A stretch of DNA of 63,898 nucleotides, filler included, from Collodictyon triciliatum (lineage: Eukaryota), in assembly GCA_043381765.1 (NCBI GenBank). It is 4 parts of 4 records of this genome, joined end to end, with 100 filler letters (N's around TTAATTAATTAA, not from the genome) between each part and the next. Parts side by side here need not be neighbours in the genome. Positions count along the whole stretch, not along the records: positions 40,720 to 61,409 come from JBHJMP010000872.1; 3 more parts are not named here. One strand, 5' to 3'. The position numbers and the translations under genes were made by a program. Below, one piece after another: positions 10,043 through 61,509 of the stretch (positions within the stretch are counted from its first letter, which is position 1; each line of letters opens with the position of its first letter). The notes below the pieces were generated by a model that was not told the DNA's origin, did not search any database, and saw only the letters and a list, made by a program, of their open reading frames with translations.

Positions 10043-10664
10043 TTGTTTTGGCCGAATTTGTTATTCTTTAATCATTCGCTGTATACACCTGCGTGGCAAA
10101 GTTTACAACAGCGTAAATATAAAGTGAAAAAAATAAATAATCTAAAACATCTAATACTAGTGATAAGTGTATCTTAGAAAGTACGGTCATTAGAATATGA
10201 GGGGATTAATAAGAATAAGAATACAAGAAGCCATTTGAGGAGTCGATTATTAAAACAGTACCTGACTTCTATGGAAGTGAGACCATGGAATAATATTATT
10301 GGAAGAATAGGAGGAAGAAGAAAAGCAACACCGGGGATTCACTACATTTAAAATAAGTGATTATGGCACCAGAGAACATAGGTAGCGTAGGTAAACTCAT
10401 CTATGTATTTGCAATCACTTTCTGTAAACAAGATGGTTGGAGTTAGACGATGAAATAGAGTTCAATTTGCTGCATCACAATTAACCCATCGCCCTCAATG
10501 GGATTGAATACAGACATCAATATTGCCAACGAGGTAAAATAACAATAAGAATAATTGGAAGGATTTAACAAAGGGACCATGCAAAGAAACATGCCTGCCA
10601 ACGTACCATTTCGATTGATCCAAAACAACGGGGCAACAAGAGACGATCAACTAATGGATGCAAG

Positions 10665-10782
10665 AAAGAAGGAAGAAGGAAGAAGGAAGAAGGAAGAAGG
10701 AAGAAGGAAGAAGGAAGAAGGAAGAAGGAAGAAGGAAGAAGGAAGGAAGAAAGGAAGAAAGGAAGAAAGAGAAAGGAAGGAA
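10665..10782. repeat. (GAAGAAG)n purine microsatellite
   Basis: Heptamer tandem run downstream of the cyclin. Confidence 0.9.
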
Positions 10783-10888
10783 TAGAATGGAATAGAACGC
10801 AGAGCATGGCTGCCGGCTCAATAGATAGAAAAGAGCCCGAGGCCCTGCAAGGAGACAGAGTGGCCAACAACCCCTGCACCCGACGGGC

Positions 10889-11093
10889 TCACTTTCGGCT
10901 GCGCTGCGTCGATCTGGGTCTGGGCCGCGCCTGGTCGGTCTGGAAAGCGCTCGCCGGGGTGGCGATGTTGCCGCGCGAAGGCGGAGGAGGAGGAGGAGCG
11001 GCGGCGGCGGCGGAGGAGGAGGAGGAGGAGGAGGAGGAGGACTGGTAGAGGGACTGCGGCCGGGCGTATGGGGCAGCGGCAGGAGGGACAGCA

Positions 11094-11124
<31 letters not shown>

Positions 11125-11764
11125 CGCGGTGGGCAGAGGCGGCGCGGACGGCGGGGCTGAGCTGGATGCCGGCGGGGTTCTCTGCGGCCTGGGCGAGGAG
11201 GCGCTGGGCCTCGGCGACAAAGGCGGAGTAGATGTGCGCGAGGCGGGCGGGGTCGATGGTCAGGTGGAAGCGCAGGCCCTGCAGGAAGTCCATCTCGAGG
11301 GCGTTGAAGAGCTCCACGGGCAGCTCGCCGAGCTGGGCAAAGGTCAGGTTGTTGTAGGTGACGTCGTCCATGAACTTGGTGCCCAGGCACACGGCCACCA
11401 GGAAGAGCGGCCGCAGGTTGTCGTGCGTCAGCGCCAGCTCGCGCGTGCGCAGGAAGCGCTGCATGTACAGGATCGCCGTGCAGATCGCCTCGTCCGTCAC
11501 CAGATCGAAGCGCCGCACAAGCTGCAGCATCTCCTCCACAGACCGCTGCAGGCTCACCTGCTCGAACAGGCTGCGCAGCCCAGAACCCACGCCCGGCCCG
11601 GCTCCAACCATGCCCGCCCCCACGCCGGCCTCCCCGCACGAGCTCTCCAGGTAGTGCACGATCTGCTCGTGGATGTCCTTGCGCGTCACCCCGTGGTCTT
11701 CCGCTCGCGCGGGTGCCACGTACGCCACGATCGCCGCCTCGCGCACGCTGCTTGCCTGCGCCAT
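10889..11764 (-). CDS. PHO80/PCL (cyclin P/U-type) cyclin, intronless, 291 aa
   Basis: Cyclin-box motif AILYMQRF...NLRPLFLVAVCLGTKFMDDVTYNNLTFAQLGELPVELFNALEMDFLQGLRFHLTI. Confidence 0.9.
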
Positions 11765-13012
11765 CCCGTCTTCTTCTCTCTCCCGTGGCGTGCTTTCTCC
11801 CTCTGCCTTGCTTCCTTGCTTCCTTGCTTCTTTGCTTCTTTGCTTCTTTGCTTCTTTGCTTCCTTGCTTCGCCCACTACGTGCGCCAAATGTGAGGCCCG
11901 ACTTCACGGGAGGGCGTGAAAGGAAAAGAGAAAATGAGGCGGGTGACTTGGATGTATACTCTCGGCTCGAGGCGTGAGGCGCGAGGCATGAGGCGGACTC
12001 GTTGTGACTGGGGCTTCTCTTCCCATCCAAAACACCCCTCCCTCTCCTGCGGCCAGAGGCCCCGGCTCCGTGCGGATTCTTTGTGATGATCAGCGTTGCG
12101 TGCAGCTTGGCTTGTGATTGGATGTTTGGAGCGATGCGCAAAAAGCTATTCGCAGAAAGTCGACAAAATTAGGCACCTCTTTGTCAGTAATATTCGGTGA
12201 ATGAGGATTAATCTGGATTATATCTTGTGCCTGTCTAGGGAAAATTTCGGTTGATCTTTTTCTGGAATTTGTACAATTTTGGTGACTGTGTCAAAAAGCG
12301 GTCGAACTACCAATGCGTTCATGCCATAAAAATTCTTTTCGTTCTTTATGGACGCATAGATTCTAAGGATGACGTGGAGACACGAATTGTTTCTCCTGAT
12401 TAGGATGAATATTTCACCCATTTTGGAAGGAAAGTACAACTAGCTTGTTACCAGATATATGTAAATCGGACAAAAATAGAACTGAAGCACCGGTTGTTGC
12501 ATGCCACATAATTTATTTATATTTTATATATATTTAAAGTATAAATTTATTTATATATTGGATAAAAGTGAATTACATGTAAATTATTTATTAGATATAT
12601 TATAGAATCCACATATATATATTACGCTTTCTTTATGAAAACATCGACCAACCGCGGTTCGTTACAAAAAACCATCTAAAAAAAATCAAAGCCTGTCTTG
12701 TGGAGAAAAAAAATAAATCAGTACACATCATCATATTTGCAAGGGCGTTTCTCATCTGTGAAGTTTGAGCTTCCTATCATCTTCATTACTGCTTCTATTG
12801 GTTTCGGGCCTTGCAGTCTGGAAGAGACATTACCGTCGAAAGGCCCAGGAACCTGTGTCCTCGCGGCGTCTGGTGATGCACAGGAACCATCCATCCCGCC
12901 TTACCGACCACACCAGCTTCGAGAAAAATTCACCTCACACACATATGAGGGAGAATTCACTGAATATTCTACCTCAGAAAGACAAGAATGATCGCTAGTG
13001 ATCAATCAGAAA

Positions 13013-13100
13013 AAAACAAAAAACAAAAAACAAAAAACAAAAAACAAAAAACAAAAAACAAAAAACAAAAAACAAAAAACAAAAAACAAAAAACAACAAA
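13013..13100. repeat. (CAAAAAA)n microsatellite
   Basis: Heptamer tandem run. Confidence 0.9.
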
Positions 13101-13346
13101 GAAAATGAAGAAAAAATGGACAGAAAAAAAGCTACAGAGCACCCAGGCACGAACTTTCTTTTCTTTGTGGCATTATGGCGCATGGCAAATGATGTTTTAA
13201 ACCCCCAAAGAGAAGGAAGAAAAGAAGGGTAAATGATAAGATAAAAAACCATGGCAAAGGTTGTGGTGAAGCCGAGCCGAAAGAGTGGCGACAAGCGGCA
13301 TAACCCCATTATTACACACAAAGCAAGACAGCATACGCAAGACAAG

Positions 13347-13667
13347 ATGCAGCCGTGGAGACAAGCTGGAATGACCTACCTCAAATACGGAGAGTTCTGT
13401 TCTCAACTCCTGCGCCGCGTGCTGAAGGAGCCGTTCAAGAGCAATGCGCTGGCCAAGGAGTCTGCCTCGATCAACGTCACCAAGTGGGTGGACGGCAAGG
13501 TGGTCAAAGCAGGTGCACATATAGACATATACACATACTCCCCCCCCCTCCCCCCCCAAAAAAAAAACCGCGCTCATCACGCGGACTCAACCAAGGCACC
13601 TAATTCCCTGCCTCTCCTTCCCTTGCGCGCAAACATTACAGGTGAAGCCGCCGCCAAGTCAGCCTAA
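13347..13667 (+). CDS. ATP5F1E: Mitochondrial F1-ATP synthase subunit epsilon (2 exons: 13347-13512, 13642-13667; 63 aa)
   Basis: MQPWRQAGMTYLKYGEFCSQLLRRVLKEPFK...KWVDGK matches the WRxAGxxYxxY...LKE...KWxxGK signature; GT-AG intron 13513-13641. Confidence 0.9.
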   Translation: MQPWRQAGMTYLKYGEFCSQLLRRVLKEPFKSNALAKESASINVTKWVDGKVVKAGAHIDIYTYSPPLPPQKKNRAHHADSTKAPNSLPLLPLRANITGEAAAKSA

Positions 13668-13881
13668 GGACACTCGCATGTGCAGCGACCACGGCCACCG
13701 AAACATAAACCAGAATGAAAAGAAAGCCAGCTGCACAGAGCGAGCCCCAAATGACAAGTAGAGCAGAGGAGAGAATGTGGTCCTGATGAATGTAGTAGGA
13801 TGAGCGGAGCGGACCGGGGAGACAACGGAAGAAGAGCAAAATAGCCAGAGGCAGGAGGCAGGAAAGAGACTGAGAGGGAAG

Positions 13882-14934
13882 CTAGAGGCTCGGGTAGCCG
13901 CCGTGGACAACCATGACCTCGTCGTTCTCAAGCATGAGGGTTGTGCGGGAGTACTCTGTGTGCCAGAGGTTCTGGACGACGTCTGTGAACTGGAACTTGT
14001 GGTAGACGGTGCGGGCAAGGCCCCAGTAGGCCTTCTCGGCCAGGACGCGGAAGACCTCGATGTCGAAGGGGTTCTCTGCGTGGGAGTCCTCGACAAAGGG
14101 CATGACGACGTCGAAGTAGAACTGGCGGAACTTCCAGTCGCGCATGTTGTAGAGGGCGTTGCCGTTGACGTGGTAGAAGAAGGACTTTGTCTGGGGCACG
14201 TACTTGAAGGAGCCGCGGTAGAGGCTGCCCTTTGCCCAGAAGTGGGGGTTGGGCCAGCGCGTCATGGAGTCCAGGACCATGAGCCAGCCGGGGCGGATGG
14301 GGCGGCAGTCGGGCTCCATGAAGTAGAGGTAGAAGGGGTCCTTGAGGGCCAGGCCGCCGTTCATCATGTGCTCAAACATCAGGCGGCAGCCGCGCGGGTA
14401 GTCGTCGTCCTTGCCGACGAGGTGGATGTAGTGGAACTCGATCCCGCCGAAGCACTGCTGGATCTCTGGCGGCAGCGCGTGGAACGCGTCGGACAGGTTC
14501 TTGTTGACGTTGTTGTGCACCGGGTCTGCCGCAATAAAGAACGACAGCGTCGCGTGCCCGTACAGCTGCATGCCGTAGCGCTTGGCCATCCGCACCGTCT
14601 CGCGCAGCCGGCCGCTGCTCTGCACCAGCGGGTGGTCCTCCGACGTCAGGCACGGCGGGTAGTCGATCCACATCTGCATGTTCTCGATCGCCCGCCCCGT
14701 CTGCTTCACGTGGAACGGCATCAGCACGTGCGTGAGGCGCTGGTGCTCAAAGTCGATGCTGAACCACACCTGGCTCTCCTCCCCGCTCGCCCACCCCGCG
14801 CCCCCGAGCGCAACAGCCACAACCGCCGCCGCAACCACCGCCCCCTGCACCGCCCACCCCCGTCTGCTGCTGTGGCTGTGGCTGTGGCTGTGGTTGTGGC
14901 TGTGGCTGTGGCTCTTGCTTTTGCTTTCCTCCAT
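13882..14934 (-). CDS. Type II membrane protein, putative glycosyltransferase-like, intronless, 350 aa
   Basis: Short (HS)n N-tail, one hydrophobic anchor (AVVAAAVVAVALGGAG), globular domain with YFMEPDCRPIRPGWL, FWAKGSLYRG, HVNGNALYN, VVHGG; strong GC3 codon bias. ORF is solid; the function is inference from topology and the acidic EPD motif. Confidence 0.6.
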   Translation of the reverse strand: MEESKSKSHSHSHNHSHSHSHSSRRGWAVQGAVVAAAVVAVALGGAGWASGEESQVWFSIDFEHQRLTHVLMPFHVKQTGRAIENMQMWIDYPPCLTSEDHPLVQSSGRLRETVRMAKRYGMQLYGHATLSFFIAADPVHNNVNKNLSDAFHALPPEIQQCFGGIEFHYIHLVGKDDDYPRGCRLMFEHMMNGGLALKDPFYLYFMEPDCRPIRPGWLMVLDSMTRWPNPHFWAKGSLYRGSFKYVPQTKSFFYHVNGNALYNMRDWKFRQFYFDVVMPFVEDSHAENPFDIEVFRVLAEKAYWGLARTVYHKFQFTDVVQNLWHTEYSRTTLMLENDEVMVVHGGYPSL

Positions 14935-15605
14935 CGGCTCCTTGGCGATCTGTTTCTCTCTCTAGTGTTTGTTTGCGTTAGTCAGCCTTCCTTCCTTCCT
15001 TCCTTCTTTTTTTCTTTCGTTTTGCTTTCTGCTTAATCGTGCATTTCCCTTCTTTCCTTCTCTCTCGCTCTCTCCTTTCTAACCACTAATCCTTTGTTCT
15101 TCTCTCTTTATATGTATTCATTCATTTTGTACTTTCTTTACTTGCTTTTTTTTTTTTTGTTTTCACACCCCTATTCTCTTCTCTGCTGCCGGGCTGTTTG
15201 CTGTTCACTCTGTTGGTTTCTCGCTTCGCAATCGTTTTCGTTCATGGGCTTCTTTTTTTTTCTCCTTGGCACTGAGCAACAAGCAACAGAAGGGTTCAGC
15301 GCCCAGTCATTACCAATTAATGCTGAGTTGTGTGCGAGGGCTCCGTTATTTTTTCCGCTTTTTTGTTTTTTGGCAAAGGTTGTGCGTGAGTACGGTAATG
15401 TGGTTGATCAATAGGACTATCATGGCTGTGTTTGAAATCGCTGGAGTATGATTGTTCCCCTCAAATTTTGAAATACATATCTGGATTTTATTTTTTTAAA
15501 AAAATACTGACACTGCACATTGGTGAAAGAAGGGAGGAATTGCGCTGTGGTCTGTGCCGCTGGTTTAGCTAGTCGTGTATGCATCATGACATATCTTCCT
15601 CTGTT

Positions 15606-28128: not shown

Positions 28129-28228
28129 NNNNNNNNNNNNNNNNNNNNNNNNNNNNNNNNNNNNNNNNNNNNTTAATTAATTAANNNNNNNNNNNNNNNN
28201 NNNNNNNNNNNNNNNNNNNNNNNNNNNN
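28129..28228. other. Artificial contig linker N44-TTAATTAATTAA-N44
   Basis: Identical 100-bp six-frame-stop spacer occurs three times. Confidence 0.97.
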
Positions 28229-32470: not shown

Positions 32471-35400
32471 TCAGCGGTGAGCAAACTGAGAAGGAAAATT
32501 CCAGTCATAATCGGCATACTTGATGCGTATACTTTCACCTGCGGCAGCTGCAATCATACCATTCAGAATCTTTTGCATCTCGAGCGGTAGATACGGACAC
32601 AACCTTATCAGCAACTTATTGGCACTTGTTGAAATCACCGCCTTATCTCGTTCGGATTCTGCCGCATCTACGTCTAATAGGAAATCCTGCTCATACCATT
32701 CCATGACCTTCGGTAGCAGCACAGATCGGCGGTCGGGCGAGAGAACAACATGCTCCTGTAGATAAAGCGCAGCAGACTCCCTGATTTGAGCCACGCAATC
32801 GGCTTTGGTTAAAACCGGAATGACTCGGCTTGAGGGAGAGGAATTAGCTCCGCAGTGAAGGATAAAGCTGATTCCGGGCTCGGCTGGCACGAACGGAAGG
32901 GCAGACAAAACTGCGTTGGTTCGGGGGCGTATCAAATAGGAGGCGATCTTGCGTCCAAAGAAACTGGAATTCAACTGTGGGGGTGCCAGCTTGCGACGCA
33001 GAATCTGATGCTCAATCTCCAGGGGTGAAAGCACAAGCCCATCCACTTCGTACGAGAATCGCTGCATGTGTGTCTTTACGTTGTATCCGCCACCTGTGAT
33101 TCCAGTAGGTGCTCCGCATTCCAAGATGATGTGAATCACCAACACGTGATAGAGATTTGTATAGAATGCAAGCGCTGAGGTTCCAGACGGAATCGATTCT
33201 GCTGCATTGGCGCCGTCTGTAGTCTTTTCTTCAGACTCTGAAGTGTTTTGCTCTTTGTTGCGGTCGCGGATTCGAACAATCTGCAACTCGCTAGCTGCTT
33301 TGACAAACGACACGAATCTAGTTCCAAATGTTTCATCATGCCAAAAGTCGTATCCGGGCGCACTGGCGTCTTGGTAGAGAGAAAGGGCCTTCTCCAGCAA
33401 ATCTTCGATTACTTCGTTTGCGTCTCGAGATTCACTGTGGTCCCACAACAGTTTGCGTCGATTCAAAACCACGCGCTCTTTTTTGCCTATCCTTTCGGCA
33501 AAGGACTCACTGAGTGTTGGAATACCACTTCCTGCAGGCAATGAACTTGCTATCATGCTTGATAACAACGACGATGATGTGGTGGGTGGGTTGGGAAGAG
33601 AGCTTTGTGTTGGCACGATGGGACCTGATGCTGCGTTGGGTGTTCCTTGAGACGACGAAGCTGTTCGTGGGGTCGATGGTGTCGATGGTGTCGATGGGCC
33701 AGACGTTGAAGTGGATAACAAAGAAGACGGTCCAATTCCTGCGCTTCCTGGTAAAGAACCAGATGAGACAGAGTTTCCGGTAGGTCGAAGCTTCTTCAAC
33801 TTTGAGACTTCAGTGGTGATTGTGAGAATCCACTCGATAATCCACGACTGGTTTTCGTTGCAAAAATAGAAGGATTCCACCAAGGTCTTGATTTCGATAA
33901 AATGCCACCCAGGGAAAGGGAGTTCTCCTGTGACCCGACTAACTGACGTGATACTGTGTAGCGGAATCATGTACTCGGGTGTCTTTTGACGGTATTGGAA
34001 AATTCGTAAATAATCGCGCGTTAGTATCACCCAAACATCCTTCCACGCAGTTTTCCATTGCGCCAAGATGAGCTGGCCTTTCTTCACAATAATGTCAACA
34101 AGATTGCTTGGCATATTAGAATTGGGCATGTAAGGGAATCCTTCCTGGCCAAAGCTCTCCGCAATTGGAGCTTCGGCGTCAGAGCTAAGGAATGCATCCA
34201 GAAAGCGGCTGTTTGCGATGACCTCGTCAGAAAGTATGGATGAGAAAAAGCCGTTCAGCAAGTCCGGCACAGCATCCGTAGATGAAAGCTCTTCCTGAAT
34301 TCCTTCGACATCAGCACTATTCAAGGAGGCACGCTTCAAAAGATTCACCATATCGGGGGTTATTCCCGATTCTCCACTGCTAGATTCCAAAGCCTTCTTT
34401 GACGAGGATAAGGAATTCACATTTGAAATGGACTGTCGGATGGAAAGGCTCCTTTTGTTGAGCTTCCAGGCCTCTTTACATAGGTCATGGAGTCCTCCAA
34501 GGTCTTTAATTGTTCTCAACAGTGTGTGTTCATTTGCATTTGATTTTGAAGCATCAGTTCCATTCCCGTCAGCTCTTACTACAATCAAAAACATCACTTG
34601 CATTTTCCCGGCGCAAAGGCGTTCAATCCACCCAGCTACTCGGACGTTGTTGAATGAGGTGGCCATAGTTCTTGATTTGGGCCCTACAGCTCCTGGCATG
34701 ACTGATTTTAATGTATTGTCAGCCTCAGATGAGGACGCAGATACTCCATCAGATGAGCCTCGGACCAGCCCAGATGTTTGTGGGGTTGTTGTTTGGGACT
34801 GCATATTGCCGCTTGGTGATGAAGTGACAGGATTTGGCGAATTGGTGATATTTTGGACCACAGCCAAGGATGGATTAGGTCGCACGCGAAACTTCAAGCC
34901 CAGTAAGGAGACAGTCTGCATAGCCGCCGATGTGAATAAGGACGTTGTAAAATCGATTCCTGTAATTATCATAACGAAAAAGGAAACAACTCCAAAGATT
35001 AATACCACAAGGATTCCTGCAGGTTCAATGCCGATTTTGGCTGATGTGCTTTGTAAAACTTTGCCAATCTGGTCAGCAACTTGTGCCCACTTGGAGTTTG
35101 TATCCGGAGTTCGGCCAAATACATAAGCGGGTGCTGCTCCTGATGTGGTGGTTGTGATAGGGTTTGTCACGGTTTGATTTGAAGTGGGCTGACCGGAACC
35201 TCCGGCTTGGCTGGATGCTTCGAGATTGGTCGTCGTCTTTTGAGTCGCTGGTTTTGGGACAAAAGGGGTTGGTTTGAATCCTTCGTCAATCACCTCTTGG
35301 ATGAATTCCATGTCCAGTAAGCGACCCTAGAAAAGAGGTGTATCATACACATTAAGCCTGTGCTTTGCGTGAAATACTAAGGGTTTCATGAGAAAAAAAT

Positions 35401-40619: not shown

Positions 40620-40719
40620 NNNNNNNNNNNNNNNNNNNNNNNNNNNNNNNNNNNNNNNNNNNNTTAATTAATTAANNNNNNNNNNNNNNNNNNNNNNNNN
40701 NNNNNNNNNNNNNNNNNNN
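40620..40719. other. Artificial contig linker N44-TTAATTAATTAA-N44
   Basis: Same spacer as at 28129. Confidence 0.97.
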
Positions 40720-53424: not shown

Positions 53425-54278
53425 TTAAGAGTCTGAGTGTCCATGTCCATAAGAGTGGTCGGTATGGGTAGTGTGATGAGCATGATGAGCATCATGGCCT
53501 GTATGCATTGCGTGATGGGCATTATGGATGGCCATGTGAACACCATGCATATCATGTCCCATATGCATTGCGTGATGGAAATTGTGCATGGCTACATGAG
53601 CATCATGTGCACCGTGTCCCGTGTGATGAGCCGTCTCGTTGTAATAATGCCCATAAGGAGAAGTTTGGAAGTGGGAGGGTGTGGATTTAGTATCTTTGAA
53701 TGGTTGGTATGAATAAGAAGCTTCGGTGTTCTGGGCTCCGTGTGCACCAAAAGGAAAATGAGCCAGCATGTTTCTTGTACTTAAATAGTGCTGGATACGT
53801 TGAGCCGCTGCCATCATCATAAAGATGGAGAATACAAGCGTAGCCAAAGTTCCGAATTTACACACAACTCCGTCAGCATCACTCTCACACGTGTTTTCTG
53901 TGACGAACCAGCCCACGATGGAGACGATACTCAATATTATTGATGCATACGCGGTATATATTGCCCTCGCAGCATCCTTGTCTAGTTTGGTGCGACCTAC
54001 GTACAAAGCTAGGATAACAAATGCACCTTTACAAAGAATGGTGATAATAAAGACAAAGACGACAATCTGTCCTTTATCAAAGACATGGCCCAGAAATAGA
54101 GCCACGATGTTTAGAATGATTGAAACTATGCCGAGCCCCGTTACAGTCCTATCCGGGTATGCCTATCAAGTTTCGTTAACTCAATGGTGTTGAAGTATAT
54201 AGTATAAACCGCTTGATTTATATATTATGTGAAGCAGGGGTGCGATTACAGCGAAGGCATGAATGACCACACCACCAT
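53425..54278 (-). CDS. 4-TM membrane protein with His/Met-rich C-terminal tail
   Basis: Four hydrophobic segments, Cys pair between TM3 and TM4, tail HHTGHGAHDAHVAMHNFHHAMHMGHDMH...; main exon starts after an AG acceptor near 54162; start codon inferred. Confidence 0.75.
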
Positions 54279-55271: not shown

Positions 55272-55865
55272 TCAATCATGAGGACCATAAAGGCTACCCG
55301 AAAACTGAATATCTTTGCTCGACATATTGCCTTGGTTTTCAGATAAAGTCGCAGCTATGTATGGTGTATTTTGGTAGGTTTGGTTCGGATAACCATATAT
55401 CAGATTATCTCCATGGTGGATAAGAGGCTGGTGGTTTTCTCTGTTTGTGGTGTCCGCGGTATTTTGTTGTATAATCGCACAAACAATTGATAATACCAGC
55501 GAGAGGATTATGGTGATCGACCCAAGGACAGAGCAAAGCTCATCTTCTTCTCTGGAACTCCCATAGTAACTGTAGTAATAGTTACTTGTTTCGCAATTAT
55601 CTATCCCATAAATGAACCAAATAACCACAAGTATCAAGTTGCAGAGGAACGAGGCGTAAGCCAATGATGTTGATGAGCTTTGCTGCGGGTTTATAGGTTC
55701 ATTTTTTTGTTTAAAACAAACAACCAGGTGAGTTAGCTGAACCAAGAGGCAAAAAACAAACATTACTAAAAGTATTGCCTCACTTTCGAAAATATTCCCT
55801 ATAATACTCGTGATTATCAACAGGATAACACTGGCCGCCGCGCAGTAAATCGGACCATTGCCCAT
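55272..55865 (-). CDS. 4-TM membrane protein (tandem paralog)
   Basis: Four hydrophobic segments, DNCET...ELC loop, C-end FSGSLYGPHD. Confidence 0.8.
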   Translation of the reverse strand: MGNGPIYCAAASVILLIITSIIGNIFESEAILLVMFVFCLLVQLTHLVVCFKQKNEPINPQQSSSTSLAYASFLCNLILVVIWFIYGIDNCETSNYYYSYYGSSREEDELCSVLGSITIILSLVLSIVCAIIQQNTADTTNRENHQPLIHHGDNLIYGYPNQTYQNTPYIAATLSENQGNMSSKDIQFSGSLYGPHD

Positions 55866-57130
55866 CCCGCCGTTCTAGAATATCGAGGAACAAGATGACC
55901 GTATGAATACCTCCTCTGTTCATATAACACCTTTTGATTAAAATAATCGACTTATGTCAGAAGGCTAACGTTGATTTGTAGTGTCTCATCCATCTGGCCT
56001 CAACGAGCTTAACAAATGTATGCGTCCAGTCGTGGTGGTCTCTCTTAGTTCGTGAGATAGTCAACCGGGCCTCCTTTTGCTCTTTTTTTCTGACCCAGGT
56101 TCTATCAAACACAAGGCAGTTGTCATTGAATAAATTATTTTCTGCTAATTAATTTTTTTTTGTTCAGCTCATCCGTTGGCAGAACCGTTCTGCGAGAGGA
56201 ATGTAATGCCATCGAATTCATTTTTCTTGATATTTCCAAGATTAGTTTCTTTCTCAAACACTCAGAAAATGAACATGGCGTATGTCTTTTGTCGAGTTAC
56301 CACTTCAAAAAATAGTTACTCGAGGGTTCATCGTGATTCATCTACTATCTGCGCGGTTGTTTGCTGAAATATTTGACGATGCCATTAGTCGGGGCACCAA
56401 GATAAGTATATTAGCTCATATTTGATTTTATTATAATTTTTCTTCGCGCTTTATTGAAGAGATTTACATAAAAAAAACGAGACACGAAAAATGAACAGTG
56501 TAAGTTACCTCAACAAAGGATACGCCCAAGGTTGCAAGGTTCCTATATTTGCCTAGCTTGTTCGCTCATTCACATCGCTTTATGAAAAAAGAAGTTCAGA
56601 TGTAACCATAGATGTTCTCCTGGAAGCTATTGCAAACGATTTTATTATTCCCAATCGCTTTATTTCGTTCCAAAAACTCATTCGTGTAACAATGCTAAAT
56701 ATTAGGATATCAAATTTTGATTAGAATCTCTTTAAAATATAGAAAAATAGAAAATGATTTGTGGTATATTTACCTTTATATTATAGAGTTAATGATACAA
56801 CAAATAATTAAAATAAGATACTAATCTCGTTTATTTACCAAAATTGGTTTACATATAATTTTAACCATTTTCCATAAATCATAAATTATTTTACTCCGGT
56901 TCGTTTCAGTTTTTAATATTTTCATATTTTGAGAGTGCAATTTAGTCGTGTGCAAAAAAAATTAAAATACCACACCATGTAATCATAGCAATATATATTT
57001 GAAATTATGATATAAATTCAGAAATATTGTATTCTGCTGACTTTATTATTTCCATCTCGATTTCTAACATCTTTCAATCAGAAAATCTACTCGCATGTTC
57101 CAGCCCAGTGGTGAGATAAAAGGTAGGGGC

Positions 57131-57979
<849 letters not shown>

Positions 57980-58579
57980 TCTCCGCAAGCTGCTGGATAC
58001 TTGGAGTCCTAGTTAGTTTTTGTGCGTTGATCAGGTCCTAGCGGAAGGAACAGGCCTCTCATATTACTACCCCTTTGAGATTGTCAAAAGTTGTCCGCCA
58101 TCCATTTGTGATAAAAACATCGATTCAACAGAAAAAGCTCACTCAGTGATTCTTACACGGGTATCAGCTATGTCTGTCATTAAACAAATAAATGAATATA
58201 GCCAGAAAAAATAAATACAAAAATACGAAGTAAACACCTTCAACAATCCCATTTGTTTTTATGCTTTTTTTCAAGTTACAGATACCGCAATATTCTGATT
58301 GATTGGGAATTCCCAACCTGTGTGCACTCAAGGGCGAGGAAGAGGCCACCAAGGCAACGCAGCAGATACGAAGGAAATCGCAGCACCCGCCTCGCAGATA
58401 CATGATGATGCCCTATTTTCTAAGAAAGATACTATCACATTCGACCACCTGGATGTTTAATGGCCTGTTATGTTCATGGGAAAATTATGGTCGCAGGTTT
58501 GTTTCCCTAATCCTTCATTCACACTTCTCATGTGCTCCCAATTATCCCATACTGCCTTCTGATTCGAAAATTTTGCTTA

Positions 58580-58699
58580 CTTGAAGGGATATACCATCTT
58601 TCGATTGGTTAACCTGGTTCGCCAGTATCCAAGGTCTCATCACTTCTTTCACAAAGATTATGTAGTGGCGAAGGCTGCCAGGAAAGACTCAACAGCCTT
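58580..58699 (-). ncRNA. Candidate Fanzor omegaRNA scaffold
   Basis: Overlaps and follows the Fanzor stop; visible stems AAGGCTG/CAGCCTT, TCTTT/AAAGA, and GGATA[CTGG-CGAA-CCAG][ACC-A-ATC-GAAA-GAT-GGT]TATCC, then CTTCAAG. Confidence 0.55.
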
Positions 58700-60590
58700 T
58701 TTTTTAGAGGAAGGTGTATGTTGCATATTTTGTAAAATGGAAAGAACTTTCTTGAGTATACTATTAGCGCTGTTAAAGTTCCTTGTCAAGAATACAGTTT
58801 GTTTGCTTTCTGAGCGATTGCATCCTTTACATATGAGACATATAAACACCTTTTTTTGAATTCCCGTTCAGTTTCATATATTCTAGTTCTTTTTCGCAGT
58901 TGCAGCACATCTTTGAGGTTCTAAATTCATCTACACGGACTGTTTCAAAACGTTTGGATGGTATTTTTCGTAATCCTCTTCCGTTTGTTGGCATAAAATG
59001 GTTCATCTGAGATTTTCTGCTCCAGTCCCCATACGCCAGTACAACATCTTTGCCAAATGTCTTTTCGATTCGGTCCATAAACAATTGTTCACTTCTTTTT
59101 GTATTAACATACTGTCTCCATCTCATCTTTCGAAAAGTTACTTGTTCATAAAATCTGGATAGTTCTATCTGGTATTTTGATTCCATAGATACATATTTCG
59201 AAATTTATCATAATCGACCGTGCATGAATTATGTTTACTCAGTTCTGCCTCCAAATCGATCAAAGATACTCTTAATGTCTTAAACTGCTGATTCTCTTCA
59301 AAAGTCATGAGACCAAAAAAAATAACACTTTGAAAATCTGTTTTCATGCATACCCCTGAAGCATTGTACTTTTTTTTTCTCTTTTTTTTCTGGCGCAAGA
59401 GTATTTTGTGATTTTTAAGAGATTTGGTATCATGTTTTCTTTGATGTGCCGTGTAACATAATTTCTTACCTGTCTCATCCACCATCTAAACCAAATTAAA
59501 CTTGCCTGCGTCCACTCCAGCTATATTTTTTCCCTAATAAAGATAACTGCTCTTCGTAAGTTTATCTATATAAACATATTCTTGGGGGTTTTGATTAAAT
59601 TGGAATTTTGAATTTGAAATAGCTTTCTTTTCAAACAATAATGACACCGATAAGCTGTCTGTTTCTATCATGTATGTAAAATTGTAGTCTGTTTGATGAA
59701 AGAGTCTCTTCATTTCAAAGAAGTCATCGCATAGGGTCTCTTTGTATTCTGATATATTCTTCAGTAATAATCTTTTTCCATATAATACTAACAGACCTAT
59801 CGAACATGCAGTATCTAGAGTAATATGACATGGTATATTGTTAGTTCTTATAGAGATTGGTTGAAGCAGCTTGGTTCCAATGTCCTCGAAAATGTGATTC
59901 ATGTAAATTAGACATGGAATGTACTTATTTGGATTGACTTTGGCGTCATATTCGATACCATTTACAATATCGCTGGTTATGATATGGTGCAAATGCGTTA
60001 TAATCCATCTTTTATATTGTTCAGGTATTTCGAGTTTCTTGAATATGGCTTTTTTTAGCTTTCATAACTATGCCTTTTAATAGCATCCGTAATATTCTCA
60101 TCTTTAGGAACTGTTTGATTTATAAAGCGCAGTAACCTCTTTAAAAAATGCTCCTTCATGTTATTATGATAAGCTGCTAGCATTTGCTTCGCCAAGTACG
60201 GCAATACATGAAACAGTCCAACCAACGGAAAGCGCTATTCTCGGGACAAAAGTAATCGAAAATCATTGAAATAAAAAGTCATCATGTCTTTACTCATATC
60301 TGGTTGTTTTTTTAATCTTGTGGGTCTATCTTGTGAAACTACTCCGACTGTCTTTAAAGCGTACAAAAAAATATTTCATCGATTGTTGGGGGTTGTTGTG
60401 ATTTCAATATGTAACATCTTGCAAACAGATAAGTATCGGTAACCAAATTACGACACAATAAAACCGTATCGTTGATTTTGTCATGGTCATCCGCATTCTT
60501 CACAATCGACTTTAAGAGATATTTTCACATTCGGTACTCTGGTTTTACTGACTTCAGATTCTCAGACTCAAGACGTTTTCTTTTCTTCAT
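58658..60590 (-). pseudogene. Fanzor1: Fanzor1 (eukaryotic TnpB-family RNA-guided nuclease), full length but with multiple stops and frameshifts
   Basis: MKKRKR start; LKSIVK...INDTVLLCRNLVTDTYLF; LPYLAKQM...NNMKEHFLKRLLRFIN; QPISIRTNNIPCHITLDT; IETDSLSVSLLF; RuvC-I IAGVDAGK; FRKMRWRQY; VVLAYGDWS; VDEFRTSKMCCNC; CKGC; RuvC-III TRNFNSANSI. Confidence 0.92.
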
Positions 60591-60635
60591 TTTAAAGTCT
60601 TCGTTCTACTTTTTCCTTTGGAAAACTACCAATTT

Positions 60636-60643
60636 TCAATTTT
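60636..60643 (-). promoter_or_regulatory. AAAATTGA octamer 45 nt upstream of the Fanzor ATG (Mimiviridae early-promoter motif)
   Basis: Exact match in the sense orientation; the octamer also occurs by chance elsewhere in this AT-rich window. Confidence 0.3.
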
Positions 60644-61314
60644 AATAAAACTTTAGTCTATTAGTCAATCTAATAAATAAATAAAAAGGCACAAAATCAA
60701 TTCAGGCAAAACTAAGCATCTACCGAGACTTTCAAAGTGTTCGCATTGTGGCAATCAAGCACTCAGTTTATTTATAAGTGATTTGAGATAAAACGCTGAA
60801 AGCTGAGTCGGTGAGTTCGAAAGGACAGCCGTATAGCCATTGCGATTGAAAGTCAACATATCGGCCCCAAACAACATGATTACTGCCGCAAGTGTGGACA
60901 GTATTCTTTTTTGAAATGCATGTTTGGTGGCAGGTTTATAAGGTGGGTTCTGTCTGGCCAAGACAACAGCTTGTTCGTCATTTTTGAATTTTTAATGCGA
61001 AACAGGATATACATAAATGAGAAATGTGAATTAATTACAGGAATAGAGTGAGATTATGTTTTTTTTAACCTTATTATATATACTAATCATACTATTATAT
61101 TATTCAGGTTGTTTCTTGGATTCGTCAAAGCTCTTGCTTTCGTCAGTCCAGATTTAATTCAGTGGTTGTCTGCGCAATAAACTGCTATATGTGGGTACAC
61201 TTTCGTTGTATAAAAATTATTGTGCTTAAATGGGATAAAACCAAGTTCGTCACAGCCTTTGTAATGAAGTTTATCCATTTACATGCTGAATGAGACCTAA
61301 GAAAAAAGGTAATA

Positions 61315-61409
61315 AGAAAAAGAAAAAGAAAAAGAAAAAGAAAAAGAAAAAGAAAAAGAAAAAGAAAAAGAAAAAGAAAAAGAAAAAGAAAAAGAAAAAG
61401 AAAAAGAAA
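61315..61409. repeat. (GAAAAA)n microsatellite at contig end
   Basis: Perfect hexamer run; the same unit occurs at 28229-28330. Confidence 0.95.
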
Positions 61410-61509
61410 NNNNNNNNNNNNNNNNNNNNNNNNNNNNNNNNNNNNNNNNNNNNTTAATTAATTAANNNNNNNNNNNNNNNNNNNNNNNNNNNNNNNNNNN
61501 NNNNNNNNN
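61410..61509. other. Artificial contig linker N44-TTAATTAATTAA-N44
   Basis: Same spacer as at 28129. Confidence 0.97.

What the first reader, a model, noticed from the sequence alone, without database searches (positions are those of the whole stretch)
58580..60680. Fanzor1 element: eukaryotic RNA-guided nuclease locus with NLS, no transposase, now decayed
Seen: a complete ~1.9-kb reading path with N-terminal KKRKR, RuvC-I Asp (GVDAG), YGDWS, the Glu of VDEFRTSK, a zinc finger (CCNC/CKGC) and RuvC-III with Asp replaced by Asn (RNFNSA), broken by several stops and frameshifts; no transposase in the flanks; a small hairpin TATTAG-TCAAT-CTAATA at 60659-60675 may mark the 5' end. Established: Fanzors are TnpB-derived omegaRNA-guided DNA nucleases with a repositioned catalytic Glu, carried by eukaryotic transposons and giant viruses. 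Inference: a non-autonomous element from a probably uncharacterised family; intact siblings or a consensus could yield a new programmable nuclease.
Basis: partly seen in the sequence, partly recalled or inferred. Interest (0 to 1): 0.85.

Follow-up and report, generated by a model that had tools for sequence, protein, structure and literature searches.

The report
Decayed Fanzor1 nuclease gene copy
This is a broken, non-functional copy of a Fanzor1 RNA-guided DNA-cutting gene in a little-sampled eukaryote; it belongs to a large known family, and the closest relatives whose origin is labelled lie in giant-virus genome bins, so it is a new member of a known kind.

Summary
Window 60590-58658 (minus strand) is collinear with residues 1-642 of an intact 648-aa metagenomic protein, P0002 (tblastn E 2e-146). 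P0002 and a profile of its relatives match the three solved Fanzor1 proteins over their whole length.

The window copy is dead:
- four in-frame stops;
- four frameshifts, at least three of them in homopolymer runs;
- substitutions at three near-invariant active-site positions: DPG to DAG, RuvC-III Asp to Asn, and N610 to Ser.

The rearranged Glu and both CxxC pairs are kept.

Contigs of two public runs lie on 58.6-61.3 kb at 80-99% likeness (481 and 145 contigs), so this is a multi-copy repeat.

The family is large: 3147 cluster representatives. A scan of IMG/VR found 358 relatives. The 80 loci fetched are mostly intact genes in giant-virus bins. They carry a conserved, covarying 145-nt module across the stop codon, and some carry inverted ends.

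No such RNA module, inverted ends or transposase was found in the window. The proposed 5' hairpin is unremarkable.

Verdict: new member of a known kind, modest interest.

The parts
58658..60590 (-). Fanzor1 pseudogene, from the ATG at 60588-60590 to the stop at 58658-58660. It is read in five frame segments: 60590-60366, 60369-60073, 60058-59201, 59204-58827 and 58867-58658.
   Evidence: tblastn of P0002 covers residues 1-642, E 2e-146. ORF list. PDB Fanzor1 hits.
60573..60587 (-). Codons for KKRKR directly after the start Met: a basic, NLS-like patch.
   Evidence: Sequence. P0002 begins with the same MKKRKR. 38 of 125 full-length relatives have 4 or more K/R in some 6-residue window within their first 40 residues. 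Function not tested.
60525..60527 (-). In-frame TGA stop.
   Evidence: YRM*K against YRNVK in P0002.
60366..60372 (-). Frameshift 1, in a run of seven T on the coding strand.
   Evidence: The frame changes between the tblastn pieces. The run was read. The exact base is inferred.
60235..60237 (-). In-frame TAG stop.
   Evidence: SRE*RF against SRQERL.
60058..60073 (-). Frameshift 2; the exact site cannot be determined.
   Evidence: The frame changes between the tblastn pieces.
59534..59536 (-). In-frame TAG stop.
59504..59518 (-). RuvC-I motif GVDAG. The catalytic Asp is kept (codon 59510-59512). The Pro of the DPG signature is replaced by Ala.
   Evidence: Asp is 125 of 125 and Pro 122 of 125 in full-length relatives. 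The DPG signature is from 10.1101/2023.08.09.552727 (passages).
59486..59488 (-). In-frame TAG stop, where relatives have Tyr.
   Evidence: NLV*MV against NLVYMV.
59196..59198 (-). Frameshift 3, in a short A run.
   Evidence: Sibling contigs carry one more base behind 59195: 5 contigs in X8 and 1 in X5 (table 4).
59019..59033 (-). YGDWS, the G-D/N-W motif upstream of the invariant Glu. No Glu stands here.
   Evidence: Gly 125 of 125; Asp 91 and Asn 32 of 125. It aligns to GDWS/GNWS of the solved Fanzor1 proteins.
58926..58928 (-). The Glu of VDEFRTSK, the family's invariant (rearranged) RuvC-II Glu. It is kept in the window.
   Evidence: Glu 125 of 125. Rearranged Glu: PMC10530073 (passages).
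58896..58907 (-). First CxxC of the zinc ribbon (CCNC), kept.
   Evidence: C562 and C565 are each 87 of 125. Weak Cas12f1-like TNB hit, E 0.0099.
58851..58857 (-). Frameshift 4, in a run of seven A.
   Evidence: Some sibling contigs lack one base at 58851: 4 in X8, 1 in X1, 1 in X5 (table 4).
58820..58831 (-). Second CxxC of the zinc ribbon (CKGC), kept.
   Evidence: C587 and C590 are each 89 of 125.
58760..58783 (-). RuvC-III motif RNFNSANS. The catalytic Asp is replaced by Asn (codon 58778-58780) and the near-invariant Asn by Ser (codon 58760-58762).
   Evidence: Asp 122 of 125. N610 122 of 125. P0002 and P0001 read RDFNSANN.
60591..61300 (.). Repeated DNA upstream of the start codon, shared with sibling copies. 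No coding signal was recognised. The stretch 60630-60800 is variable or missing in some copies. The true 5' end is unknown: a (GAAAAA)n run and N runs follow from about 61311.
   Evidence: Depth, bridging contigs (records 25-27) and joints. No Pfam family in six read-through frames. N runs.
60659..60675 (.). It is present but is not a boundary marker.
   Evidence: 169 such hairpins in the window. Contigs bridge it.

Best explanation
The locus is a pseudogenised copy of a Fanzor1 gene. Fanzor1 is a TnpB-derived, omegaRNA-guided RuvC DNA endonuclease.

The copy belongs to a multi-copy repeat family in the genome of a poorly sampled eukaryote. Identical pieces of the locus and its flank turn up in metagenome runs, most of them labelled freshwater.

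In intact members of the family, by inference from characterised Fanzor1, the roughly 640-aa protein enters the nucleus through its basic N-terminus. It binds an RNA transcribed from the 3' end of the element, whose last roughly 20 nt come from the flanking DNA. It then cuts matching DNA with a D-E-D RuvC site in which the Glu has moved next to the zinc ribbon.

This copy cannot do that. It has four stops, four frameshifts, and substitutions at three near-invariant active-site positions. No 3' RNA module or terminal repeats can be recognised.

Its lineage (window plus P0002) branches beside Fanzor1 genes of giant-virus genome bins. There the gene sits alone in compact elements, some with recognisable inverted ends. 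The family is therefore probably exchanged between giant viruses and their hosts.
For: **Shown**

- The window is collinear with intact P0002.
- Fanzor1 identity: E 1.4e-12; 2e-28, 2.7e-24, 3.7e-23; 3.8e-96, 2.2e-94, 9.5e-72. The next PDB hits were only TranC at 0.002.
- Catalytic columns in 125 full-length relatives: RuvC-I Asp 125, Glu 125, RuvC-III Asp 122, Pro of DPG 122, N610 122. The window keeps Asp and Glu but reads DAG, RN and S.
- The published Fanzor1 pattern (10.1101/2023.08.09.552727) matches P0002, 9 of 9 viral representatives and 70 of 129 full-length hits. It does not match the window.
- The stops stand where P0002 has different residues (Val, Glu, Thr or Lys, Tyr), so a changed genetic code does not explain them.
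- Multi-copy: 481 contigs of run X8 and 145 of X1 lie on 58.6-61.3 kb at 80-99% likeness. X8 has no depth on 58000-58554.
- In a 60-row tree, window plus P0002 has support 100. Together with P0015 they are sister to L002/L003/L005 plus P0005 at support 96.
- Of 358 relatives found in IMG/VR, 80 loci were kept. The 79 for which an open frame was measured are almost all intact at about 594-700 aa.

**Inferred**

- The mechanism in intact members, from PMC10530073 and 10.1101/2023.08.09.552727 (passages).
- The eukaryotic host. No prokaryote genome is held for the window. The window has cyclin and PH/DUF547 genes. The only relative of the 951-aa ORF is a EukProt transcript at 44% identity.
Against: - At least three of the four frameshifts are one-base length changes in homopolymer runs. 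They could be assembly errors rather than mutations. The stops and motif substitutions do not depend on them.
- The sibling evidence comes from short contigs of coded runs that each hold only a small share of the sampled words (0.05-0.09). They show presence, not copy number. Whether any sibling in the host is intact is unknown.
- No omegaRNA, inverted ends or target-site duplication were found, so 'element' is not delimited.
- The tree is FastTree only. Its metagenomic rows carry no origin label, and the viral rows were chosen by likeness to the query profile.
Confidence: 0.9

Rival explanations
1. The copy is a relic of an integrated giant virus (an endogenous viral element) and not a host transposon. 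On this reading the Fanzor1 gene arrived as a passenger of viral DNA and decayed in place.
For: - The closest relatives of labelled origin are in giant-virus bins of IMG/VR.
- Atlas look-alike clusters are 92-100% viral, commonest Nucleocytoviricota.
- Sharing of Fanzor1 elements between an endogenous giant virus and its algal host is published (10.1101/2024.09.03.611062, passages).
Against: - None of the 8 large ORFs of the window that were scanned hit a viral hallmark family. They hit cyclin, PH/DUF547 and TPR, or nothing.
- The flanks show no similarity to the viral loci by blastn or tblastx.
- The viral-type terminal motif and 3' module are absent.
- Hundreds of diverged contigs cover only the 2.7-kb unit and not its downstream flank. 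That pattern fits transposon-like amplification.
Confidence: 0.08
2. The gene is alive. The apparent breaks are introns, a variant genetic code or assembly errors.
For: - Fanzor genes can carry introns (PMC10530073, passages).
- At least three frameshifts lie in homopolymer runs.
- Three of the four stops are TAG.
Against: - The window aligns to the open, uninterrupted P0002 without inserted blocks, so no introns are needed or visible.
- The three TAG codons stand where P0002 has Glu, Thr or Lys, and Tyr. There is also a TGA. No single reassignment fits.
- Long open frames of other genes (951, 781, 519 aa) read normally under the standard code.
- Three near-invariant catalytic-motif residues are substituted.
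- The window's end branch is 0.5, against 0.19 for P0002.
Confidence: 0.02

Closest known systems
Fanzor1 nucleases with solved structures: Spizellomyces punctatus (PDB 8gkh), Parasitella parasitica (9cf0) and Guillardia theta (9cer)
   Same: Whole-length sequence homology of the family profile (E 3.8e-96, 2.2e-94, 9.5e-72). The same order of motifs: DPG, G-D/N-W, DE(F/Y)(R/K)TS-CxxC, CxxC, RDxN.
   Different: The window copy is broken and has lost the Pro of DPG, the RuvC-III Asp and N610. P0002 matches these proteins only at E 2e-28 to 4e-23, so it is a distant branch. Assignment to subfamily 1a-1d was not tested.
Compact, Fanzor1-only, non-autonomous TIR elements of large DNA viruses, such as the Spodoptera frugiperda ascovirus element (10.1101/2023.08.09.552727, passages)
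   Same: The viral relatives found here have the same layout. There is one roughly 620-660-aa Fanzor1 ORF. A roughly 145-nt conserved structured module straddles the stop codon and ends sharply about 83 nt after it. In 23 of 81 loci, an inverted copy of its last roughly 55 nt lies a few hundred nt upstream.
   Different: The window shows none of these non-coding features. Its repeat extends at least 700 nt upstream of the start codon.
Fanzor1 elements shared between an endogenous giant virus and Chlamydomonas reinhardtii (10.1101/2024.09.03.611062, passages)
   Same: A Fanzor1 lineage is present both in giant-virus DNA and, as degraded fragments, in a host chromosome.
   Different: There, the full-length elements also carry a Tc1/Mariner-type transposase. 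None was found here. Here, host and virus are known only from environmental data and the link rests on a tree.
TnpB of IS200/IS605 and IS607 (the prokaryotic ancestor)
   Same: RuvC plus zinc-ribbon core. A guide RNA is encoded at the 3' end of the element.
   Different: The family profile finds no TnpB structure at E 0.001 or better. There were only weak hits to TranC (0.002) and a 'Transposase' entry (0.19) over the zinc-ribbon/RuvC-III part. The family has larger N-terminal REC-type regions and a rearranged Glu.

Membership tests
Fanzor1 | Whole-length sequence homology to characterised Fanzor1 proteins | tested here: met
   Window piece against 9cf0, E 1.4e-12. P0002 against 9cer, 9cf0 and 8gkh, E 2e-28 to 4e-23. 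Profile A1, E 4e-96 to 1e-71 over profile positions 4-607.
Fanzor1 | RuvC-I Asp in a DPG motif | tested here: inconclusive
   The Asp is kept (codon 59510-59512). The motif reads DAG, whereas Pro is 122 of 125 in relatives. The lineage meets the feature (P0002: DPG); this copy has lost the Pro.
Fanzor1 | Rearranged RuvC-II Glu next to the zinc ribbon (ExxxxxxCxxC), with no Glu at the G-D/N-W site upstream | tested here: met
   The Glu of VDEFRTSKMCCNC is kept and is 125 of 125 in relatives. The upstream site reads GDW. PMC10530073 passages. That GDW is the canonical Glu position was not tested against a TnpB alignment.
Fanzor1 | RuvC-III Asp in RDxxxxxN | tested here: not met
   The window reads RNFNSANS. 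Asp is 122 of 125 and the final Asn 122 of 125 in relatives. P0002 and P0001 read RDFNSANN. The failure is a decay of this copy, not of the lineage.
Fanzor1 | An open reading frame encoding the full protein | tested here: not met
   Four stops and four frameshifts.
Fanzor1 | An associated omegaRNA at the 3' end of the element, with its guide beyond the right end | tested here: not met
   The covariance model of the viral relatives' 3' module gives no hit at the window's 3' end; the best was E 0.41 elsewhere. The fold of 58560-58725 has z 0.22. Rfam gave nothing.
Fanzor1 | Residence in a eukaryotic or large-virus genome, within a transposon | tested here: inconclusive
   The eukaryotic setting is inferred. 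The repeat nature is shown. No TIR, target-site duplication or transposase was found.
Fanzor1 | A functional nuclear localisation signal | not testable with these tools
   MKKRKR at the N-terminus, as in P0002. It is only a basic patch by sequence.
Fanzor2 / IS607-type | Shorter protein (about 500 aa), closer to TnpB, with an IS607 TnpA neighbour | tested here: not met
   The PDB profile search returns only Fanzor1 entries at significant E. The length is about 640 aa. No serine recombinase lies in the flanks.

The most novel reading that the evidence does not exclude
The host, a protist lineage so far represented only by environmental reads and one distant transcriptome, carries a recently amplified Fanzor1 family. 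Many contigs are 90-99% like this copy. The family would have been exchanged with giant viruses, and some copies would still be intact. Its ends and guide RNA differ from those of the viral relatives. If so, the clade of the window and P0002 would be an uncharacterised Fanzor1 branch with its own omegaRNA and TAM, and a traceable case of virus-to-host spread of an RNA-guided nuclease.
Probability: 0.3. Interest if true: 0.45.

Novelty: new member of a known kind. Interest (0 to 1): 0.25.

Why it matters
Fanzor1 nucleases are compact eukaryotic genome-editing candidates, and their natural role is still open. This copy is dead, so it has no direct use. It does point to three things:

- An intact 648-aa relative (P0002) and a clade of several hundred intact giant-virus genes with a clearly delimited, covarying 3' RNA module. 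These could be tested as nuclease-guide pairs.
- A host in which the family has multiplied. That would allow ends, target sites and activity to be worked out.
- One more case consistent with giant viruses and their hosts sharing these elements, which is already reported for green algae.

Tried and rejected
- **Whole-genome search of the window's own assembly.** No genome is held.
- **Pfam on the fragments alone.** Only a sub-threshold Cas12f1-like TNB hit, E 0.0099. Pfam on P0002 found no family at E 0.1 in the local copy. The databases do tag P0002 with PF26935/DUF8286, and no paper mentions that name.
- **The 69-aa C-terminal piece alone against PDB.** Only chance hits.
- **The same 69-aa piece against the protein collection at near lengths.** None. 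Whether host siblings read Asp or Asn at RuvC-III therefore stays open.
- **Metagenome contig scan with P0002.** One distant locus, L001, at 21% identity.
- **IMG/VR scan with P0002 alone.** None. It succeeded only with the profile A1.
- **Other copies inside the window.** None.
- **Inverted repeats around the locus.** None convincing. A local alignment of the 3' zone against the reverse complement of the 5' zone scored 26, and 5 of 200 shuffles scored as high.
- **Viral terminal motif in the window.** 0 matches with up to 3 mismatches. The 10-mer with 1 mismatch occurred at the chance rate, with none near the locus.
- **Rfam on 57800-61400.** 0 matches.
- **Sequencing runs.** No RNA holder is listed. 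All holders have small shares of 0.05-0.09. X8 is only guessed to be RNA, so nothing is claimed about expression.
- **X8 cover.** X8 contigs have no depth on 58000-58554. This is taken only as a hint of where the repeat ends.
- **Cluster look-up of the nearest relatives.** No informative names or accessions.
- **Directional mutation bias (RIP-like).** The changes, table 1 are symmetric. For X8: A>G 66, T>C 73, C>T 66, G>A 62. No bias is claimed.
- **Not attempted.** Structure prediction and complex prediction were not run, because sequence homology was already decisive. The Fanzor catalogues in them may already list this subfamily or host.
Full report
**Observation**

- MKKRKR at the start.
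- GVDAG, with the Asp codon at 59510-59512.
- YGDWS at 59019-59033.
- VDEFRTSK, with the Glu codon at 58926-58928.
- CCNC and CKGC.
- RNFNSA.

The path runs through five frame segments. It has four in-frame stops: TGA 60525-60527 and TAG at 60235-60237, 59534-59536 and 59486-59488. It has four frameshifts: near 60366-60372, between 60058 and 60073, at 59196-59198 and at 58851-58857.

This is not chance. The 125-aa piece 58827-59204 alone matches Parasitella parasitica Fanzor1 (PDB 9cf0) at E 1.4e-12, Spizellomyces Fanzor1 (8gkh) at 5.6e-07 and Guillardia Fanzor1 (9cer) at 3.3e-05. The piece that carries RuvC-I matches 9cer at 4.7e-04, with the Asp aligned.

**An intact relative**

A search of the large protein collection with the 125-aa piece returned four proteins. 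One of them, P0002, has 648 aa, is open, comes from a 2.6-kb environmental contig and begins with the same MKKRKR.
- tblastn of P0002 against the window covers residues 1-642 over 60590-58661 without inserted blocks, E 2e-146. A global alignment of the read-through translation, with X at each break, gives 375 of 627 identical, 59.8%.
- P0002 matches the three solved Fanzor1 proteins at 2.1e-28, 2.7e-24 and 3.7e-23.
- A profile of 30 relatives (A1) matches them at 3.8e-96, 2.2e-94 and 9.5e-72 over nearly its whole length. The next entries, TranC, reach only 0.002.

Membership of the lineage in Fanzor1 is therefore shown by sequence.

**State of the copy**

I aligned 125 full-length (560-800 aa) proteins out of the 154 then held.

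| Position | Count in 125 relatives | Window |
|---|---|---|
| RuvC-I Asp | 125 | kept |
| Pro of DPG | 122 | Ala (DAG) |
| Glu next to the zinc ribbon | 125 | kept |
| RuvC-III Asp | 122 (2 Asn, 1 gap) | Asn (RN) |
| Asn six residues after that Asp | 122 | Ser |
| Four zinc-ribbon Cys | 87-89 each | kept |

The published Fanzor1 search pattern (10.1101/2023.08.09.552727, passages seen) matches P0002, 9 of 9 viral representatives and 70 of 129 full-length hits. It does not match the window.

The stops stand where P0002 has Val, Glu, Thr or Lys, and Tyr, so a reassigned codon does not explain them. Other genes of the window give open frames of 951, 781 and 519 aa under the standard code.

Three of the four frameshifts are one-base length changes in runs of T7, A3 and A7, as read from the sequence. 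At two of them, some sibling contigs carry the other length (table 4). They could be assembly errors. The stops and the three motif substitutions remain either way. The gene is dead.

**A repeat family**

The window holds no second copy and no genome is available.

Public runs hold only small shares of the sampled words (0.05-0.09). When laid at 80% likeness, however, 481 contigs of run X8 and 145 of X1 lie on the stretch.
- For X8 the likeness classes are 24 contigs at 99% or more, 126 at 95-99%, 167 at 90-95% and 164 below 90%.
- X8 depth is high from about 58.66 kb to the end of the laid stretch at 61.3 kb. It is nil on 58000-58554.
- Contigs bridge the start codon into the upstream DNA (records 25-27), so the repeat extends at least 700 nt upstream of the ATG.
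- 60630-60800 is a variable zone, with joints that skip it and loose ends.

The hairpin at 60659-60675 lies in that zone. It is one of 169 such hairpins in the window and does not end the repeat.

Two runs hold pieces identical to the window: X2 at 59627-59777 and 59835-59985, and X5 at 58000-58172. The source organism or a very close one is therefore present in those samples. Most of the runs listed are labelled freshwater metagenomes; X5 carries no organism label.

The contigs show presence only. They give no copy number and do not show whether any sibling is intact.

**The wider family**

HMMER of P0002 against 1.84 billion cluster representatives finds 3147 at E 0.001 or better, 1703 at 1e-10 and 537 at 1e-30. 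Names in the nearest clusters are uninformative.

Atlas look-alikes are clusters tagged PF26935/DUF8286 that are 92-100% viral, commonest Nucleocytoviricota.

An IMG/VR scan with profile A1 found 358 stretches that encode relatives. The best 80 were kept. They are 38-47% identical to P0002, and many lie on contigs named as giant-virus bins. An open frame was measured in 79 of the 81 loci held, and nearly all carry frames of about 594-700 aa.

I built a FastTree tree of 60 rows: the window; 9 viral rows left after collapsing 77 at 80% identity; 48 metagenomic rows of 560-800 aa; and 2 distant rows.
- Window plus P0002 are joined with support 100.
- With P0015 they are sister to L002, L003, L005 and P0005 at support 96.
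- All nine viral rows fall in the same 22-row clade, support 97.
- The window's end branch is 0.5, against 0.19 for P0002.

The metagenomic rows have no origin label and the method is quick, so a direction of transfer is not claimed.

Sharing of Fanzor1 elements between an endogenous giant virus and its algal host is already in print (10.1101/2024.09.03.611062, passages).

**Non-coding parts**

In the viral relatives, DNA likeness between different loci runs on past the stop codon, mostly by 60-120 nt, and then stops.

In 40 non-redundant loci, motif positions place the conserved module from about -61 to +83 around the stop. It ends in GGTGTAAA.

RNAalifold on 39 of them gives 23 pairs. Six pairs keep pairing through changes on both sides. 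The clearest are columns 17/53 (19 sequences), 19/51 (7), 18/52 (4) and 106/163 (12).

A covariance model of this module (R1) hits the plus strand at the ORF's 3' end in 78 of 81 loci at E 0.006 or better. Of these, 39 are its own training rows. Two of the three misses have no downstream DNA.

By my own count of the table, the model also hits the minus strand, with its last roughly 55 positions only, a few hundred nt upstream of the open frame in 23 of 81 loci (E 0.003-0.9). That is the signature of terminal inverted repeats around a compact element of roughly 2.3 kb that carries only Fanzor1. This layout is described for an ascovirus Fanzor1, whose roughly 120-nt scaffold plus roughly 20-nt guide RNA was mapped (10.1101/2023.08.09.552727, passages).

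The window shows none of this:
- R1 gives no hit at its 3' end; the best was E 0.41, inside the ORF.
- The terminal motif is absent.
- The 166 nt around the stop fold no better than shuffles, z 0.22.
- No inverted repeats join the two flanks.
- Rfam finds nothing.

Either the host family has different ends, or this copy has lost them. Sibling DNA was not obtainable, so this stays open.

**Flanks and host**

No Pfam family reached E 0.05 in the six read-through frames of 60640-61301 apart from a sub-threshold PHD hit. Small ORFs on either side gave only chance-level hits. The flanks are unlike the viral loci.

Downstream lie three tandem genes for a membrane protein of unknown family.

Elsewhere the window carries a cyclin gene, a PH/DUF547 gene and TPR repeats. 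The 951-aa ORF has a single relative in the large collection, a EukProt transcript at 44% identity. The host is thus an under-sampled eukaryote. I did not try to name it.

**Mechanism**

For intact members I take the published Fanzor model. The protein has an N-terminal NLS and a RuvC site with a Glu moved towards the zinc ribbon. It carries a guide RNA from the element's 3' end and makes a guide-dependent double-strand cut next to a TAM (PMC10530073, passages; the Nature 2023 Fanzor paper is recalled, not seen).

For this lineage, the following are shown here: homology, the conserved triad, and in the viral kin a covarying 3' module with a sharp end. The following are inferred: RNA binding, guide use, cleavage and nuclear import. 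This copy is an inert relic.

**Verdict**

The finding is a new, dead member of a large known family. The added points of interest are the intact relative, the giant-virus kinship and the amplification in an obscure host.

Noticed in passing
L010:4760-4904 and the same place in 78 of 81 fetched loci (for example L042:4769-4913, L013:2190-2334): Giant-virus Fanzor1 genes carry a roughly 145-nt conserved module from about 61 nt before to about 83 nt after the stop codon. It has covarying stems and a sharp end at GGTGTAAA, after which the loci are unrelated. It is probably the omegaRNA scaffold and the right end of the element.
   Followed up: yes
L001:1975-2029 (-), L044:2531-2585 (-), L067:2578-2632 (-) and 20 further loci: An inverted copy of the last roughly 55 nt of that module lies a few hundred nt upstream of the ORF. 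It suggests terminal inverted repeats around a roughly 2.3-kb element that encodes only Fanzor1. Each hit is weak on its own (E 0.003-0.9).
   Followed up: partly
L073:7556-7739 (-) and L074:7556-7739 (-): A second, full-length match to the 3' module lies on the opposite strand about 2.7 kb downstream of the first element (E 4e-08). It suggests another element copy nearby in the same viral contig.
   Followed up: no
window 53425-54162, 55272-55874, 57131-57769 (all minus): Three tandem ORFs for multi-pass membrane proteins with no Pfam family. The outer two of the nearer pair share 31% identity (E 1e-32) and a C-terminal LYGPH(D/N) tail. The third is a distant paralogue (E 1e-07). They lie directly downstream of the Fanzor relic.
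   Followed up: partly
window about 57840-57950 and 61311-61400; N runs at 61410-61453 and 61466-61509: The Fanzor repeat is bracketed by a long (TAT)n run on one side and a (GAAAAA)n run plus paired 44-N runs on the other. The same paired 44-N pattern recurs at 28129-28228 and 40620-40719. The gap hides the 5' limit of the repeat.
   Followed up: no
window 10500-15000: A GC-rich island (0.44-0.54, against about 0.3-0.4 for most of the rest) has long open frames on both strands over the same DNA. It includes a PHO80-type cyclin ORF (10889-11875, minus) and a 359-aa ORF with no family (13882-14961, minus).
   Followed up: no
window 32471-35326 (-): A 951-aa intron-less ORF with PH and DUF547 domains. 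Its only relative in the 5.8-billion-protein collection is one EukProt transcript at 44% identity, which shows how poorly sampled the host lineage is.
   Followed up: partly
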